Below are positions 9,739 to 15,560 of a stretch of DNA of 15,560 nt, one piece after another; within the stretch, counting starts at the first letter, position 1, and each line of letters opens with the position of its first letter. The notes under the pieces are model-generated. The model had not been told where the DNA came from and ran no database searches. It saw only the letters and a list, made by a program, of their open reading frames with translations. The DNA is from Candidatus Micrarchaeota archaeon (GTDB lineage Archaea; Micrarchaeota; Micrarchaeia; Norongarragalinales; UBA8480): contig JAZDHP010000006.1 of the NCBI GenBank assembly GCA_043805855.1, positions 1 through 15,560 of the forward strand, in the 5' to 3' direction. The position numbers were made by a program, and so were the translations under genes.

Positions 9739-10983
9739 TTAGTTTTTCACCTTTTTTGCAGGTTTAGCGCTTGATTTGCTAGTTGTTGCTACTCCCTTTT
9801 TAGCTTTGTACTTGTTTGCGAGTTCAACCATTATCTTTGCAGTTGAAGTCATCGGCGTGTCCGCACCGTAAAGGTGAAGATCAAGGCCAATTTCTTTTGC
9901 CAACTTGCGCATGATTTCAAAACCTTCTTTTTCTCCCGGACCAGCTCGGCGAATAACAATTGGAAACGCTGGCTTAATCTCACGCAGCGCTTGTGCAATG
10001 CCTTCAAACGTCACGTCAACGCGAGTGTTACTTGCAATTCCACCAGCAATCCAACAACCGTTTAACCCCGGCTTGCTGAGAATAACTTTTGTCAATTTGT
10101 ACATTTTTTCCGTTGGAGGGTTTCCGCCGTATTCAGTGTAATTCGCTGGCTTTCCACCAGCAACAAGCAACGCGTCTGTATTTGTCAATGACCCGCCACC
10201 GCCTGAAGTCATCATTGCAATATCTCCGTCAAGTTCAATATATTTTCCCGCAATACCACGGTGGTCGCCTTCGTCGATTTTCTTCGCGTCCAACTCGCGC
10301 TGTGTTGGCAAACGGTCAAACGCACTGCGTTGTTTAAACGTGAAATCTTTATGACGGTAAAGCGCATCGTCGTCCAAGATCATCGCAGTTCCAGCTGCAA
10401 CTACACTCCCGTCAGCAGTTAAACATAATGGATTAATCTCTACAATCGTCGCATCGCAGCCGACAAAACACTTGTACAACCGCGTTAGTGCGTCGGCAAC
10501 TTTTGGCATTGTTTCTCCAGTAAATCCAGCTTGCTTGCACAGTTCTCTTGCCTTCCATCCCTGGAGCCCGTCGAGAGGGTCAACTGGAAATTTCACTAAC
10601 TTTTCAGGATGATTCTTCGCCAACTCTTCAATTTCAATCCCGCCTTCGCTGCTTATCACAACAACGGGTTTCTTCTGCTGATCGTCGTAAACAATACTCA
10701 AGAAATACTCCGCCGTGATGTCAACTTTATCTTCAATGTAAACCTCGTGAACTGTTTGCTCGAGGATTTTCTTGCCAAGCATCTGACTAGCGGCGGCTTT
10801 TGCTCCTTCAATACTATCAACAATTTTAATCGCGCCTGCTTTTCCCCTTTTGCCAGCTAGTACCTGCGCCTTTACAACTCCTGCGCGATCTACTTCTTCA
10901 ACTTTTTGAAACACTTTACCTTGCGGTATAGCTATACCATACTTTGCAACAAGTGCCTTTGACTCATATTCGTAAAGTTTCAT
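9739..10983 (-). CDS. ccsA: Citryl-CoA synthetase large subunit (ATP-grasp + ATP-citrate-lyase-type citrate-binding domain)
   Basis: MKLYEYESK, VVKAQVLAGKRGKAGAI and EINPL mark the ATP-grasp domain. The C-terminal SGGGGS, ANYTEYGGNP, GGIASNT and IRRAGP follow the ACL pattern, not the SucC pattern. SD GAGGAG at 10997-10992. Confidence 0.82.
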   Translation of the reverse strand: MKLYEYESKALVAKYGIAIPQGKVFQKVEEVDRAGVVKAQVLAGKRGKAGAIKIVDSIEGAKAAASQMLGKKILEQTVHEVYIEDKVDITAEYFLSIVYDDQQKKPVVVISSEGGIEIEELAKNHPEKLVKFPVDPLDGLQGWKARELCKQAGFTGETMPKVADALTRLYKCFVGCDATIVEINPLCLTADGSVVAAGTAMILDDDALYRHKDFTFKQRSAFDRLPTQRELDAKKIDEGDHRGIAGKYIELDGDIAMMTSGGGGSLTNTDALLVAGGKPANYTEYGGNPPTEKMYKLTKVILSKPGLNGCWIAGGIASNTRVDVTFEGIAQALREIKPAFPIVIRRAGPGEKEGFEIMRKLAKEIGLDLHLYGADTPMTSTAKIMVELANKYKAKKGVATTSKSSAKPAKKVKN

Positions 10984-14312: not shown

Positions 14313-15167
14313 ATGCAACTTGAAATTCACCCATCGATAAAGCCACGCGTGCGACAACTTAACGCACTTGCTAAGGAAATGATAGAAAGTTGCGATTCGC
14401 CGGCAAATGTGCAGTTTCGATTTGGAAATAACGTAAACCACAATGAAATAGCTTTTCCAGCAACAAACAAAAGAAACAGAGTGCTTCAAATTATTGCGTT
14501 TAACCAACGAGCTGAACCAAAGAGCGCAAGAGAAGTACAGCTTGAAACTTGGCATGAAACTGAACGCACGAGTGACGAAGAAAGTCTCCCTTACATATTT
14601 GAACTGCCAAACGCATCAATACCAACTGCGTTACGCGACGCGTGGGATCGCACTGAAAGCGAAGCGATAAAACAACTTCAACTTAAAGAAGGGCAACACG
14701 TACTAGAACTAGGCCCAGGAAAAGGAAGCGCAATAGCGAAGATATTACGAACTAAAGCCAAAGTAACTGCAATTGACCATTTACCGGCAGTTACTGCTAA
14801 ATTACAACGACAATACGCACCTTACATTCAAAATGGGCAACTAAAGTTACACACGGGGCAATACACTGAAACAACAAGGGCTAGTCAATGGCGCCACGGC
14901 GAAATGGACCACGTGGTTTCATTCTGGGCAACTAACCAACATCCATTTCCACAAAACGTGTTCAAAATGGTACGCGCTGCGTTAAAACCAGGCGGCACTT
15001 ACACCTTTGTAGAAGCTACTCCCTTTTACGACCACACAATCGCGCAGTTGAAAAAAGCTGGGCTACAAGTTGAAAAAGTAGAAGTTAAGGAAACCGTACC
15101 AAAAATACCAATAGATGGCAAAAAAGTAGAACTTTACACAACAGTAATAACCGCAGTAAAAGCGTAA
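14313..15167 (+). CDS. Class I SAM-dependent methyltransferase with unassigned ~100-aa N-terminal region
   Basis: Motif I VLELGPGKG, motif II VTAID, MDHVVS and RAALKPGGTY. Confidence 0.85.
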   Translation: MQLEIHPSIKPRVRQLNALAKEMIESCDSPANVQFRFGNNVNHNEIAFPATNKRNRVLQIIAFNQRAEPKSAREVQLETWHETERTSDEESLPYIFELPNASIPTALRDAWDRTESEAIKQLQLKEGQHVLELGPGKGSAIAKILRTKAKVTAIDHLPAVTAKLQRQYAPYIQNGQLKLHTGQYTETTRASQWRHGEMDHVVSFWATNQHPFPQNVFKMVRAALKPGGTYTFVEATPFYDHTIAQLKKAGLQVEKVEVKETVPKIPIDGKKVELYTTVITAVKA

Positions 15168-15208: not shown

Positions 15209-15249
15209 TTGCAATAACAAAACAATTACAATATAGCCCCGTCGTCTAG

Positions 15250-15313
15250 AACCGCCTTTTTCTTTTTTAAAGAAAAAGGCCTGTTCGGCCCAAAAAGAAA
15301 AGCGGTCAGACAA
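15250..15313 (+). other. tRNA intron 1 (position 15/16, D-loop), 64 nt
   Basis: Central helix GTCT(15244-47)/AGAC(15308-11), bulges AG^A and AA^T, outer pairs TC/GG, and inner stem ACCGC/GCGGT with one extra C (relaxed BHB). Confidence 0.88.
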
Positions 15314-15336
15314 TGGTCAAGGATACGGGCCTTTGG

Positions 15337-15402
15337 AAAAAGGCCCTCTCATAAAGCCAGAGGTCTAAAAGGCCTGCGGCGATTGAGCGGCCTTTTAAGG
15401 CA
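15337..15402 (+). other. tRNA intron 2 (canonical 37/38), 66 nt
   Basis: Strict BHB: helix CTTT(15331-34)/AAGG(15397-400), bulges GG^A and CA^A, inner stem AAAAGGCC/GGCCTTTT. Confidence 0.92.
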
Positions 15403-15423
15403 AGCCTGCGACAGCGGTTCGAA

Positions 15424-15481
15424 CGGCTTTTCTTTTGAGAAAAGAAAAGACCGAGGGAAAAGAAAACCCTCAAACTGAAAA
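15424..15481 (+). other. tRNA intron 3 (position 59/60, T-loop), 58 nt
   Basis: Helix TTCG(15418-21)/TGAA(15476-79), bulges AA^C and AA^T, closed by the T stem outside and G15425-C15475 inside. Confidence 0.9.
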
Positions 15482-15519
15482 TCCGCTCGGGGCTATATTT
15501 TTCTTATACGTGAAACAAA

Positions 15520-15560
15520 ATGGACTGCATTTTCTGCGAGATTGTAAAGGGAAAAATACC
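15520..15560 (+). CDS. HIT-family protein, 5' end only
   Basis: Not in the ORF track. ATG 15520 reads MDCIFCEIVKGKI(P), the characteristic CxFCxIxxGxIP N-terminus of HIT hydrolases. Runs off the window. Confidence 0.85.
   Translation, partial: MDCIFCEIVKGKI

What the first reader, a model, noticed from the sequence alone, without database searches (positions are those of the whole stretch)
15254..15471. Introns share a TTTTCTTT/AAAGAAAA palindrome and a one-arm/two-partners design
Seen: intron 1 has a perfect 12-bp hairpin GCCTTTTTCTTT-TTT-AAAGAAAAAGGC (15254-15280) plus a second partner AAAAAGAAAA (15292-15301). Intron 3 has a 10-bp hairpin CTTTTCTTTT-GAG-AAAAGAAAAG (15427-15449) plus a second AAAAGAAAA displayed in the loop of GAGGG/CCCTC (15453-15471). 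Intron 2 has AAAAGGCC twice (15338, 15367) for one GGCCTTTT (15389). In introns 1 and 2 the distal pairing closes the BHB and the proximal one competes with it. Inference: either a short palindromic element is colonising or spreading with tRNA introns, or the introns are bistable switches gating splicing, or the excised circles are functional RNAs.
Basis: partly seen in the sequence, partly recalled or inferred. Interest (0 to 1): 0.72.

Follow-up and report, generated by a model that had tools for sequence, protein, structure and literature searches.

The report
Triplex-type repeat modules fill tRNA introns
The shared palindromes in the three introns of this archaeal glutamine tRNA gene are copies of small repeat modules that occupy tRNA and rRNA introns throughout this group of tiny archaea, and their three matching tracts point to a three-stranded fold, not to a splicing switch.

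Summary
Window 15235-15495 (+) is a tRNA-Gln(UUG) gene cut by three bulge-helix-bulge introns, in the D-loop, at 37/38 and at 59/60. Standard finders miss it.

The repeats are not specific to this gene. Introns 1 and 3 each carry a three-tract module: a pyrimidine arm, a purine arm and a second purine tract. The genome holds 69 such modules. They lie in 25 T-loop introns, a 23S rRNA intron, tRNA trailers and a gene flank, and in at least 40 of 155 Micrarchaeota genera sampled. Intron 2 holds an inverted copy of a second repeat family.

Copying is recent. Against a congener whose exons are identical, intron 1 is replaced, and intron 3 is 95% identical to a tRNA-Gly intron.

The "second partner" is a mirror of the purine arm, not the best Watson-Crick partner. 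That is the layout of class II intrastrand triplex motifs (Holder 2015). The switch idea is not supported. Whether a triplex forms, and whether in DNA or RNA, is untested.

Earlier notes of this scan reported the same family in other genomes.

The parts
15235..15249 (+). tRNA-Gln(UUG) exon 1: acceptor 5' strand, U8, C9, D-stem 5' strand, A14 and G15.
   Evidence: The in-silico splice gives an ARAGORN cloverleaf. An intron-less relative, L048, reads GTCTAG directly followed by TGGTCAAGGAT.
15250..15313 (+). Intron 1, 64 nt, in the D-loop, with a relaxed BHB. Central helix GTCT 15244-15247 / AGAC 15308-15311. Bulges AG|A and AA|T. Inner helix 15251-15255/15302-15306, with C15307 unpaired.
   Evidence: My reading, and the best solution of my finder. 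The congener G077 has an unrelated 37-nt intron at the same site (27 of 65 aligned columns identical).
15255..15302 (+). Family A module in intron 1. Pyrimidine arm 15255-15268, purine arm 15269-15279, linker 15280-15291 (a GGCC/GGCC mini-hairpin spans 15278-15290), mirror purine tract 15292-15302.
   Evidence: In the global alignment (52 of 68 columns) the shared module stretch, about 56 columns, differs at 4 from the module in the tRNA-His 3' trailer; BLAST gives 94% over 51 nt at C53:12956-13006.
15314..15336 (+). Exon 2: rest of the D-loop, D-stem 3' strand, A26, anticodon stem 5' strand and loop through G37 (anticodon TTG at 15333-15335).
15337..15402 (+). Intron 2, 66 nt, at canonical position 37/38, with a strict hBHBh' motif. 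Central helix CTTT 15331-15334 / AAGG 15397-15400. Inner helix AAAAGGCC 15338-15345 / GGCCTTTT 15389-15396. Outer helix is the anticodon stem.
   Evidence: My reading, and the finder. It is 60 of 66 identical to the G077 orthologue.
15355..15398 (+). Family B repeat core inside intron 2. It is in the orientation opposite to the copies in tRNA-Gln(CUG), tRNA-Ser and tRNA-Val introns of the same genome.
   Evidence: BLAST hits on 8 other contigs on both strands, and the sequences printed.
15403..15423 (+). Exon 3: A38, anticodon stem 3' strand, 4-nt variable loop, T-stem 5' strand and T-loop TTCGAA.
15424..15481 (+). Intron 3, 58 nt, in the T-loop at 59/60 (the boundary can slide by one A). Outer helix is the T-stem. 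Central helix TTCG 15418-15421 / TGAA 15476-15479. Bulges AA|C and AA|T.
   Evidence: My reading, and the finder. It is 56 of 59 identical to the T-loop intron of tRNA-Gly(CCC) at C58:2492-2548, but only 47 of 62 to the G077 orthologue.
15425..15471 (+). Family A module in intron 3. Lower stem GG(C)/G-A-CC, pyrimidine arm 15427-15436, loop GAG, purine arm 15440-15449, mirror purine tract 15458-15466 shown in the loop of GAGGG/CCCTC (15453-15457/15467-15471).
   Evidence: Predicted pair probabilities are 0.94 for the hairpin and 0.98 for the second hairpin.
15482..15495 (+). Exon 4: U60, T-stem 3' strand, acceptor 3' strand and discriminator A. No CCA is encoded.

Best explanation
The three introns are built from two families of dispersed repeat modules that populate the BHB introns of this Micrarchaeota genome.

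Family A is in introns 1 and 3. It has three parts: an all-pyrimidine arm, a perfectly complementary all-purine arm, and, after a short GC-rich linker, a second purine tract. That tract is the mirror image of the purine arm. Equivalently, it is the parallel complement of the pyrimidine arm. Family B is in intron 2, inverted relative to its copies in other tRNA genes.

Splicing depends on the few flanking nucleotides that pair with the exons to make the bulge-helix-bulge. The module is the cargo or core of the intron.

Shown here:
- The modules are copied between unrelated tRNA genes, between intron positions, and into trailers and gene flanks, in both orientations.
- They turn over between congeners.

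Inferred:
- The three tracts interact as a three-stranded helix. The layout is that of a class II purine-motif intrastrand triplex. On the complementary strand it is a class III pyrimidine-motif triplex.
- From published chemistry this is most plausibly formed by single-stranded DNA during replication or recombination.
- Polymerase stalling and template switching at the conserved tRNA loops would then explain the spread and the flanking duplications.

A structural role in the transcript is the alternative. The 'one arm, two partners' look of this gene arises because its tracts are nearly symmetric.
For: Family size and enrichment: 69 modules in 1.03 Mb, against 0-1 in shuffles and 3 in the reversed genome.

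Placement:
- 25 T-loop introns share the blocks CTTTTCTTT, AAAAGAAAAG and GG(G)AAAAGAAA.
- Two copies lie inside the 23S rRNA span.
- One lies 3' of the EndA stop codon, between two copies of the last ~27 nt of the gene.

Orientation: of 59 strict modules, 26 are sense and 2 antisense inside tRNA loci found by my finder; 4 lie near such loci and 27 were unassigned. An antisense subfamily is seen at seven loci (C8, C9, C10, C29, C32, C34, C59), five of them inside or just 3' of tRNA genes (C9, C10, C29, C32, C59); for C8 and C34 the orientation or context rests on my reading of the sequence.

Recent copying, with exons 73 of 73 identical to congener G077:
- Intron 2 is 60 of 66 identical to its orthologue.
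- Intron 1 is unrelated to its orthologue (27 of 65).
- Intron 3 is 47 of 62 identical to its orthologue but 56 of 59 to a tRNA-Gly intron.

Mirror rule:
- In an unbiased census of this genome, run lengths correlate as arm-first-run with third-tract-first-run 0.93 and second with second 0.72. The crossed pairs give -0.09 and -0.16. Among 73 modules, 49 are asymmetric in both tracts. Of these, 46 have the same sign and 3 the opposite.
- In 133 modules the parallel complement fits better in 106, ties in 19 and fits worse in 8. In 110 of 133 it has no mismatch, over a mean of 11.0 nt.
- In a search that fixed only an asymmetric hairpin and left the third tract as any 9 purines, I read 74 distinct listed places. 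Three had no A-rich tract. Of the other 71, 54 were mirror, 14 uninformative and 3 not mirror. A further 618 matches were not listed. The backwards control gave 3 matches in 401 genomes.
- At the EndA flank the two congeners differ in all three tracts together: T6CT3/A3GA6/A6GA3 against T4CT4/A3-4GA4/A4GA3.

Hairpin quality: the arms are strictly one purine and one pyrimidine strand, with 1459 of 1464 Watson-Crick pairs.

Published class: Holder et al. 2015 (PMC4666352; abstract, passages and sections 15-16 read). Class II is a pyrimidine block, then a purine block, then a reverse-Hoogsteen block. One such repeat folds as a DNA triplex in vitro and marks unstable loci.

Splicing machinery: a 388-aa EndA open frame and RtcB are present.
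Against: No physical or expression data exist for any copy, and no RNA run was listed.

Passages in Holder 2015 and Brown 2020 (PMC7583470) say that purine-motif triplexes are not established in RNA or cannot form there. Most copies here are in the sense that would need exactly that in the transcript.

Geometry is awkward for a full-length triplex in the spliceable fold. In intron 1 the third tract abuts the closing helix. In intron 3 it is a 9-nt loop of a hairpin with predicted probability 0.98.

Linkers are often longer than the 1-6 nt of the published class.

Hairpin mismatches show no G-U preference (5 T:G against 5 C:A in 136 modules). That fits DNA-level constraint or young copies, but it does not discriminate between them.

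The modules from L001-L070 were fetched with a pattern that itself contains a mirror core. Only searches are unbiased.

The copies are related to one another, so the counts overstate the number of independent events.

The flanking direct repeats vary from 14 to about 30 nt. No transposase or reverse transcriptase was found (RVT_1: 0 matches in a genome 92% complete). The route of copying is therefore unknown.
Confidence: 0.62

Rival explanations
1. Bistable splicing switch. The pyrimidine arm alternates between the proximal purine arm and the distal purine tract. Only one of the two states presents a cleavable bulge-helix-bulge.
For: In this gene the distal pairings are good: 10 of 10 in intron 1, continuous with the inner helix, and 11 of 12 in intron 3. 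In intron 2 the single GGCCTTTT has two partners, and a competing hairpin GGGCCTTT/AAAGGCCC has mean pair probability 0.76 against 0.22 for the BHB inner helix.
Against: Across copies the distal tract is the mirror and not the complement. In asymmetric copies such as T5CT2 with A5GA2, only about 5 bp stay in register (rows). The distal pairing has probability 0.000 in intron 3 and 0.18 in intron 1. The same module occurs in trailers, in a gene flank and in antisense orientation. In intron 1 a hairpin shortened by 2 bp is compatible with the BHB.
Confidence: 0.08
2. An RNA-level structural element. The transcript itself folds into a three-stranded or loop-in-groove structure. The antisense copies would form a classical U.A-U / C+.G-C triple helix like ENE or MALAT1 elements. 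The fold compacts the AU-rich intron and protects the excised, possibly circular, intron from nucleases.
For: The same mirror covariation supports it. The modules lie in transcribed places: introns, trailers and rRNA introns. Sense orientation dominates strongly in T-loop introns. The three tracts are conserved while loops and linkers vary. In antisense copies the order is U-rich tract, stem-loop, U-rich tract, A-rich tract.
Against: Purine-motif RNA triplexes are not established. There is no G-U wobble signature in the hairpin. The orientation bias may only reflect copying of whole introns. No RNA data exist.
Confidence: 0.2
3. No three-strand interaction at all. The module would be a young, fast-copying selfish repeat. 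The regular tract lengths would be inherited from a few founder copies, or would serve an unknown factor that binds polypurine.
For: Copies are clearly related and recently moved. Linker subfamilies recur across genera. Hairpins are almost free of mismatches, as expected for young copies.
Against: At least nine different run-length states each keep the mirror relation within one genome. Multi-G tracts in other genera do the same. Orthologous copies differ in all three tracts together. No replication or repair process is known that produces a complement without reversal. This last point rests on my own knowledge.
Confidence: 0.1

Closest known systems
Class II (purine-motif) intrastrand triplex repeats of bacteria: the ITxF classes, TMECO, formerly BoxC / PIT elements (Holder et al. 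2015, PMC4666352)
   Same: Three consecutive blocks on one strand in the order pyrimidine, purine, reverse-Hoogsteen purine. The complementary strand has the class III layout. The repeats are many, dispersed and conserved. They are linked to variable loci.
   Different: The module here is A/T-rich, not G/C-rich. The second loop is often 8-18 nt and often a mini-hairpin. The module sits inside BHB introns of tRNA and rRNA genes and next to tRNA ends in archaea. No biophysical proof exists. 'tRNA' has no occurrence in the paper's main text, and 'archaea' occurs only in the two descriptions of its database.
Transposed non-canonical tRNA introns of Thermoproteales (Fujishima et al. 2010). The paper itself was not held; I know it from the citing passage in PMC3239211 and from recall.
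   Same: Near-identical BHB introns in non-homologous tRNA genes and at different positions, read as recent intron gain by copying.
   Different: Here the shared part is a discrete core module with a three-tract design. It occurs in both orientations and also outside introns, and it is found across a phylum.
ARMAN-2 (Ca. Micrarchaeum acidiphilum) disrupted tRNAs with 59/60 introns and the three-unit epsilon2 endonuclease (Fujishima et al. 2011, PMC3239211; Kaneta et al. 2018, PMC5829648; passages read)
   Same: Same phylum. T-loop 59/60 introns with relaxed BHB motifs. Multi-intron tRNA genes hidden from standard finders. A long single EndA open frame.
   Different: The passages I read describe no conserved intron core or repeat family.
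ENE / MALAT1-type U.A-U RNA triple helices (Brown 2020 review, PMC7583470, passages; details otherwise recalled)
   Same: The antisense copies have two U-rich tracts and one A-rich tract with matching registers.
   Different: The window's introns carry the opposite (purine third strand) sense. There is no poly(A) or 3'-end context.
Small palindromic mobile repeats such as MITEs and mitochondrial double-hairpin elements (named in earlier scan note e1-944673; recalled)
   Same: Short, ORF-less, hairpin-rich repeats that colonise introns in either orientation.
   Different: There is no fixed target duplication and no identified transposase. The mirror third tract is not a feature of those elements.

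Membership tests
Archaeal bulge-helix-bulge (BHB) tRNA introns | Two 3-nt bulges separated by a 4-bp helix, with flanking helices, at each exon-intron pair. | tested here: met
   Intron 2 is a strict hBHBh'. Intron 3 has the outer helix, the central helix and both bulges. Intron 1 is relaxed: central helix, both bulges, and an inner helix with one extra unpaired C. This is my reading, and it matches the best solution of my BHB finder.
Archaeal bulge-helix-bulge (BHB) tRNA introns | Removal of the introns yields a canonical tRNA. | tested here: met
   A 73-nt product is called tRNA-Gln(UUG) by ARAGORN. The exons are 73 of 73 identical in G077.
Archaeal bulge-helix-bulge (BHB) tRNA introns | Cleavage by the splicing endonuclease and ligation by RtcB. 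| not testable with these tools
   The genes are present: EndA as a 388-aa open frame at C10, and RtcB at C59. No RNA data exist.
Class II intrastrand triplex motif (ITxF definition) | Pyrimidine block, then purine block, then purine (reverse-Hoogsteen) block, 5' to 3' on one strand. | tested here: met
   The class definition is in the passages.
Class II intrastrand triplex motif (ITxF definition) | Blocks 1 and 2 are Watson-Crick complementary. Block 3 is antiparallel-identical (mirror) to block 2, giving A.A-T and G.G-C triplets. | tested here: met
   1459 of 1464 pairs are Watson-Crick. The mirror fits better in 106 of 133 modules, and 110 of 133 show no mismatch.
Class II intrastrand triplex motif (ITxF definition) | Stems of 6-15 nt and both loops of 1-6 nt. 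| tested here: not met
   Stems are 8-17 nt and the first loop is 0-6 nt. The second loop is 12 nt in intron 1 and about 8 nt in intron 3, and reaches 18 nt elsewhere.
Class II intrastrand triplex motif (ITxF definition) | Triplex formation demonstrated (CD, NMR, footprinting). | not testable with these tools
   No computation offered here models triplexes.
Transposed BHB introns (Thermoproteales type) | Highly similar introns in non-orthologous tRNA genes or at different positions. | tested here: met
   Intron 3 is 56 of 59 identical to a tRNA-Gly(CCC) intron. Over the shared module stretch of about 56 aligned columns, intron 1 differs at 4 from a tRNA-His trailer copy (52 of 68 in the whole alignment). 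Modules occur in D-loop, anticodon-region and T-loop introns.
MITE-like DNA transposon | Fixed-length target-site duplication and a cognate transposase. | tested here: inconclusive
   Direct repeats flank three copies, but their lengths differ: about 14-16, about 27 and about 30 nt. No transposase search was made.
ENE / MALAT1-type RNA triple helix | Two U-rich strands clamp an A-rich strand. | tested here: not met
   The window's two modules have one U-rich and two A-rich strands. Only the antisense copies elsewhere have the ENE-like order.

The most novel reading that the evidence does not exclude
The transcribed module folds into an all-RNA purine-motif (A.A-U / G.G-C) triple helix. Textbooks and reviews treat this structure as not forming in RNA. 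Here it would be conserved as the core of tRNA and rRNA introns across a phylum, to compact or protect the intron or its circle. A close second reading is that the DNA form stalls polymerases and drives template switching at the conserved T- and D-loops, which would be a concrete mechanism for how BHB introns are gained.
Probability: 0.15. Interest if true: 0.92.

Novelty: new variant of a known kind. Interest (0 to 1): 0.72.

Why it matters
How archaeal tRNA introns arrive is an open question. A 2026 preprint on Asgard tRNA introns (abstract read) concludes that "how they arrive remains open".

This genome offers a live case. A recognisable cargo module is shared by dozens of introns, and replacement between congeners is datable. 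The module lies at the most conserved tRNA loops and is sometimes flanked by duplications. Intron gain becomes directly testable with such material.

The module also extends a class known only as bacterial DNA repeats into archaeal RNA genes. Its covariation is clean enough to justify a biophysical test of a triplex in DNA and in RNA.

There is a practical point too. These introns hide most tRNA genes of such genomes from standard finders: 11 genes by ARAGORN, and 5 Rfam matches above the cut-off.

Tried and rejected
- ARAGORN on the window found 0 genes and Rfam at gathering threshold found 0 matches. Neither can see multi-intron tRNAs. I wrote a finder anchored on the T-arm that tests BHB deletions with ARAGORN. 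It lists 36 loci. Several with spans over 420 nt are probably false, and I dropped them, leaving 29.
- A wobble test was meant to tell which strand's RNA is under selection. It was uninformative: 5 T:G against 5 C:A in 136 modules.
- Search for RNA evidence: no RNA holder was listed.
- An Rfam E-value scan of 20 loci that carry the motif in other taxa returned only tRNA hits next to the motif and one sub-threshold match to an unrelated family (Plastid-ycf2). No family covered the module.
- The whole-collection scan used a pattern that already contains a mirror core and had no control. Its bacterial hits cannot be used to test the mirror rule. One family (L071, L145) looks like a direct repeat instead.
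- A reverse-transcriptase route: RVT_1 gave 0 matches in a genome 92% complete. This is not proof of absence.
- My first alignment of the EndA flank used the opposite strand of L190. The alignment itself is poor, but the printed sequence shows the orthologous insertion.
- Fujishima 2010 could not be fetched.
- Literature searches for a description of the module found none. Subscription journals and supplements were not searched.
- A terminator or promoter role was considered. It does not explain the mirror tract or the GC clamps, and it was not tested.
Full report
**1. What is in the window.**

Positions 15235-15495 (+) lie between an ORF that ends at 15167 and one that starts near 15521. The ends are 7 nt that pair perfectly, AGCCCCG and CGGGGCT, followed by a discriminator A. 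ARAGORN finds no tRNA in the window and Rfam finds nothing at gathering score.

Reading by the rules of the bulge-helix-bulge (BHB) motif, I placed three introns.
- Intron 1 is 15250-15313 (64 nt) in the D-loop after G15. Its central helix is GTCT/AGAC, its bulges are AG|A and AA|T, and its inner helix is ACCGC/GCGGT with one extra unpaired C. This is a relaxed motif.
- Intron 2 is 15337-15402 (66 nt) at 37/38. Its outer helix is the anticodon stem, its central helix is CTTT/AAGG, and its inner helix is AAAAGGCC/GGCCTTTT. This is a strict motif.
- Intron 3 is 15424-15481 (58 nt) at 59/60. Its outer helix is the T-stem, its central helix is TTCG/TGAA, and its bulges are AA|C and AA|T.

Joining the four exons gives 73 nt that ARAGORN folds as tRNA-Gln(UUG). 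My own finder ranked the same solution best. A tRNA-Gln gene of another genus (L048) has no D-loop intron and reads exactly the predicted junction.

**2. The observation.**

The repeats are not chance.
- The hairpin pattern has 2 hits in the window against 0.00 expected.
- Five of the ten AAAAGAAAA words of the 15.6-kb window lie within 209 nt, and 2.49 words are expected for the whole window.

**3. It is a genome-wide family.**

The window is contig C6 of a 1.03-Mb, 41% G+C assembly. Earlier notes of this scan call it Micrarchaeota. ARAGORN with introns allowed finds only 11 tRNA genes. The Rfam tRNA model gives 19 matches at E up to 10, of which 5 are above the cut-off.

My finder recovered 36 candidate loci, and 29 have spans of at most 420 nt. 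Their sequences show that nearly all carry a T-loop intron of about 55-70 nt with the same core. An alignment of 25 such introns keeps four blocks: CTTTTCTTT, a short loop, AAAAGAAAAG, and GG(G)AAAAGAAA. The 3' end is YGAAAAT, which pairs with the T-loop. Flanks, loops and linkers vary.

A regular expression for the three tracts finds 69 modules. It finds 0-1 in each of ten dinucleotide shuffles done in 300-nt blocks, and 3 in the reversed genome. The hairpin alone gives 160 hits, that is about 80 loci read on both strands, so nearly every hairpin has the third tract.

Modules also lie in these places.
- In D-loop and anticodon-region introns.
- Inside the 23S rRNA span, at C5:60367-60458 within 57583-61835.
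- In the spacer tRNA between 23S and 16S.
- In the 3' trailer of tRNA-His.
- Just 3' of the stop codon of the splicing endonuclease gene.

**4. Both orientations, and turnover.**

Of 59 modules that pass a strict hairpin filter, 26 are in the sense of a tRNA locus found by my finder and 2 are antisense. Four lie within 120 nt of such a locus and 27 are unassigned. Many of the unassigned ones have a T-loop motif just upstream.

One subfamily has the linker GGCCAGGCGTGGCC. It is antisense to the adjacent tRNA gene in C9, C10, C29, C32 and C59. It also occurs in C34, where I read the tRNA by eye on the opposite strand, and in C8, where the context is unknown. It is sense in C22. In C9 and C32 it is flanked by a duplicated tRNA 3' end of about 14-30 nt. 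The copy 3' of EndA is flanked by two copies of the last ~27 nt of the gene.

The congener G077 has the orthologous tRNA-Gln(UUG), and its exons are 73 of 73 identical.
- Its intron 2 is 60 of 66 identical, which indicates vertical descent.
- Its intron 1 is an unrelated 37-nt sequence without a module (27 of 65).
- Its intron 3 is only 47 of 62 identical.

Within this genome the window's intron 3 is 56 of 59 identical to the T-loop intron of tRNA-Gly(CCC) on C58. Over the shared module stretch, about 56 aligned columns, the window's intron 1 differs at 4 from the tRNA-His trailer copy on C53 (52 of 68 in the whole alignment). The core of intron 2 matches eight other contigs on both strands. 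It is the reverse complement of the element in the paralogous tRNA-Gln(CUG) intron 2 and in Ser and Val D-loop introns.

**5. The second partner is a mirror.**

I wrote each module as T^a C T^b, loop, A^c G A^d, linker, A^e G A^f. In the unbiased census of this genome (73 modules) the Spearman correlations are as follows.

| Pair | Correlation | Meaning |
|---|---|---|
| a-d | 0.83 | the hairpin |
| a-e | 0.93 | mirror relation |
| b-f | 0.72 | mirror relation |
| a-f | -0.09 | Watson-Crick relation |
| b-e | -0.16 | Watson-Crick relation |

Among modules asymmetric in both tracts, 46 have the same sign and 3 the opposite. At least nine different (a,b) states each keep the rule.

Other genera have tracts with two to four G's, and these obey the rule too. 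In L005, for example, the arm is C T5 C T4 C T3 C T and the third tract is GG A5 G A4 G A3 G AA.

Over 133 modules (59 from this genome and 74 from 70 fetched loci) the third tract fits the parallel complement of the pyrimidine arm better than the antiparallel one in 106. It ties in 19 and fits worse in 8. In 110 of 133 there is no mismatch, over a mean of 11.0 nt. When third tracts are swapped among modules, a perfect mirror is expected in 46 of 133 and 92 are observed.

The fetched loci came from a pattern that itself contains a mirror core, so I ran an unbiased search. It fixed only an asymmetric hairpin (T5CT3 with A3GA5) and left the third tract as any nine purines. It hit 57 of 401 genomes in 40 of 155 genera, and the backwards control gave 3 matches in total. 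The output listed 74 distinct places and did not list 618 further matches.
- Three places are the palindrome read on the other strand, with no A-rich tract.
- Of the other 71, by my reading, 54 are mirror. For example, A3GA6 is followed by A6GA3 in G368, G190, G354 and G399.
- 14 are uninformative because the arm is symmetric.
- 3 are not mirror (G326:C16, G156:C7, G346:C8).

At the EndA flank the two congeners differ in all three tracts together.

The hairpin itself is strictly one pyrimidine strand and one purine strand, with 1459 of 1464 Watson-Crick pairs. With a looser filter, 126 of 136 hairpins are perfect, and the mismatches are 5 T:G and 5 C:A.

**6. What this means for the switch idea.**

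A partner selected for alternative Watson-Crick pairing should be a direct copy of the purine arm. It is the mirror instead. This gene only looks like 'one arm, two partners' because its tracts are nearly symmetric (T5CT6 with A5GA4, and T4CT4 with A4GA4).

In the nearest-neighbour ensemble of the 261-nt precursor, the mean pair probabilities are as follows.

| Helix | Probability |
|---|---|
| Intron 1 proximal hairpin | 0.76 |
| Intron 1 distal pairing | 0.18 |
| Intron 3 proximal hairpin | 0.94 |
| Intron 3 second hairpin | 0.98 |
| Intron 3 distal pairing | 0.000 |
| Intron 2 GGGCCTTT/AAAGGCCC | 0.76 |
| Intron 2 BHB inner helix | 0.22 |

Intron 2 does show a real competitor to the BHB fold. 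Such predictions ignore proteins and tertiary contacts.

**7. How it most likely works.**

Shown here: the modules are dispersed, recently copied, independent of orientation, and keep a three-way sequence relation.

Inferred: that relation is the signature of a three-stranded helix. The order pyrimidine block, purine block, mirror purine block is the class II purine-motif intrastrand triplex. Its complement is class III. This comes from Holder et al. 2015 (PMC4666352; abstract, passages and sections 15-16 read). That paper reports three relevant things.
- It shows a G/C-rich bacterial repeat of this layout folding as a DNA triplex in vitro.
- It links such repeats to variable loci.
- It cites polymerase arrest by purine-type triplexes.

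The same paper and Brown 2020 (PMC7583470, passages) say that purine-motif triplexes are not established in RNA.

On present knowledge the DNA form is the safer reading. A single-strand triplex would stall replication and promote template switching. That fits the intron replacement, the flanking duplications of variable length, and the preference for the T-loop and D-loop. By general knowledge these are the most conserved stretches shared by all tRNAs, and they could supply microhomology. Only insertions whose flanks make a BHB would survive. This last chain is my hypothesis.

Against any full-length triplex in the spliceable RNA fold: in intron 1 the third tract abuts the closing helix, and in intron 3 it is a 9-nt hairpin loop.

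**8. Comparison and novelty.**

Known things:
- multi-intron tRNAs and 59/60 introns in Micrarchaeota (PMC3239211, passages);
- copying of BHB introns in Thermoproteales (cited there; the paper itself was not held);
- intrastrand triplex repeats in bacteria (PMC4666352).

I found no description of an A/T-rich triplex-type module as the common core of archaeal tRNA and rRNA introns. The searches were made, and Rfam has no family for it. Kaneta 2018 (PMC5829648, passages) notes that incomplete tRNA sets in DPANN point to unidentified disrupted genes.

Earlier notes of this scan describe the same family in other genomes, including the three-strand idea (e1-1201254 and e1-3793544). I reached the mirror rule before reading them. 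The second note gave me the Holder reference.

**9. Verdict.**

I rate this a new variant of known kinds, with interest 0.72.

Noticed in passing
L189 2021-2160 (= G000:C10 about 28920-29060) and L190 (G077:C26): A family A module lies just 3' of the stop codon of the 388-aa splicing-endonuclease open frame. It sits between two copies of the last ~27 nt of the gene, and both copies still read YEIEWVQP-stop. The congener has the same arrangement, with all three tracts changed together.
   Followed up: partly
G000:C9:30560-30900 and G000:C32:6000-6260: Antisense modules sit 3' of two tRNA genes. They are flanked by direct duplications of the tRNA 3' end: about 14-16 nt in C9, and about 30 nt including the trailer in C32. 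It is unclear which 3' exon copy is used.
   Followed up: partly
G000:C10:14050-14300, G000:C29:32851-33047, G000:C5:60367-60458: Some long introns hold a sense module and an antisense module facing each other. These are a T-loop intron, the 125-nt anticodon intron of tRNA-Cys, and a 23S rRNA intron.
   Followed up: no
L071-L188: The same pattern hits many ANME-1 / Methanophagales records, in a very uniform copy inside a larger repeat. It also hits Aenigmatarchaeota (L142 is a tRNA-Gln with a D-loop intron at the same site), Nanoarchaeia and Iainarchaeum. It hits bacteria too, with 1-4-nt linkers: Clostridia, Saccharibacteria next to tRNA genes, Leptospiraceae and Omnitrophota.
   Followed up: partly
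window 15230-15241 / 15488-15499: The 5' leader AATAT and the 3' trailer ATATT extend the acceptor stem to 12 perfect base pairs (I5). A TTTAAA box lies about 30 nt upstream, and a T5 run follows the gene.
   Followed up: no
G000:C59:12806-15532 (-): RtcB matches in two pieces within one 960-aa open frame, with about 1.4 kb between them. An intein-like insertion is likely, but I did not examine it.
   Followed up: no
G000:C5:75326-75448 (-): ARAGORN calls a second tRNA-Gln(UUG) here with an odd intron. My finder gives ambiguous anticodons for the same locus. The isoacceptor count for Gln is therefore unresolved.
   Followed up: no
G000:C45 (-), finder coordinates 9759-10013: The paralogous tRNA-Gln(CUG) has three introns at the same three positions. 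Family A modules are in introns 1 and 3, and family B is in intron 2 in the opposite orientation to the window's copy.
   Followed up: partly
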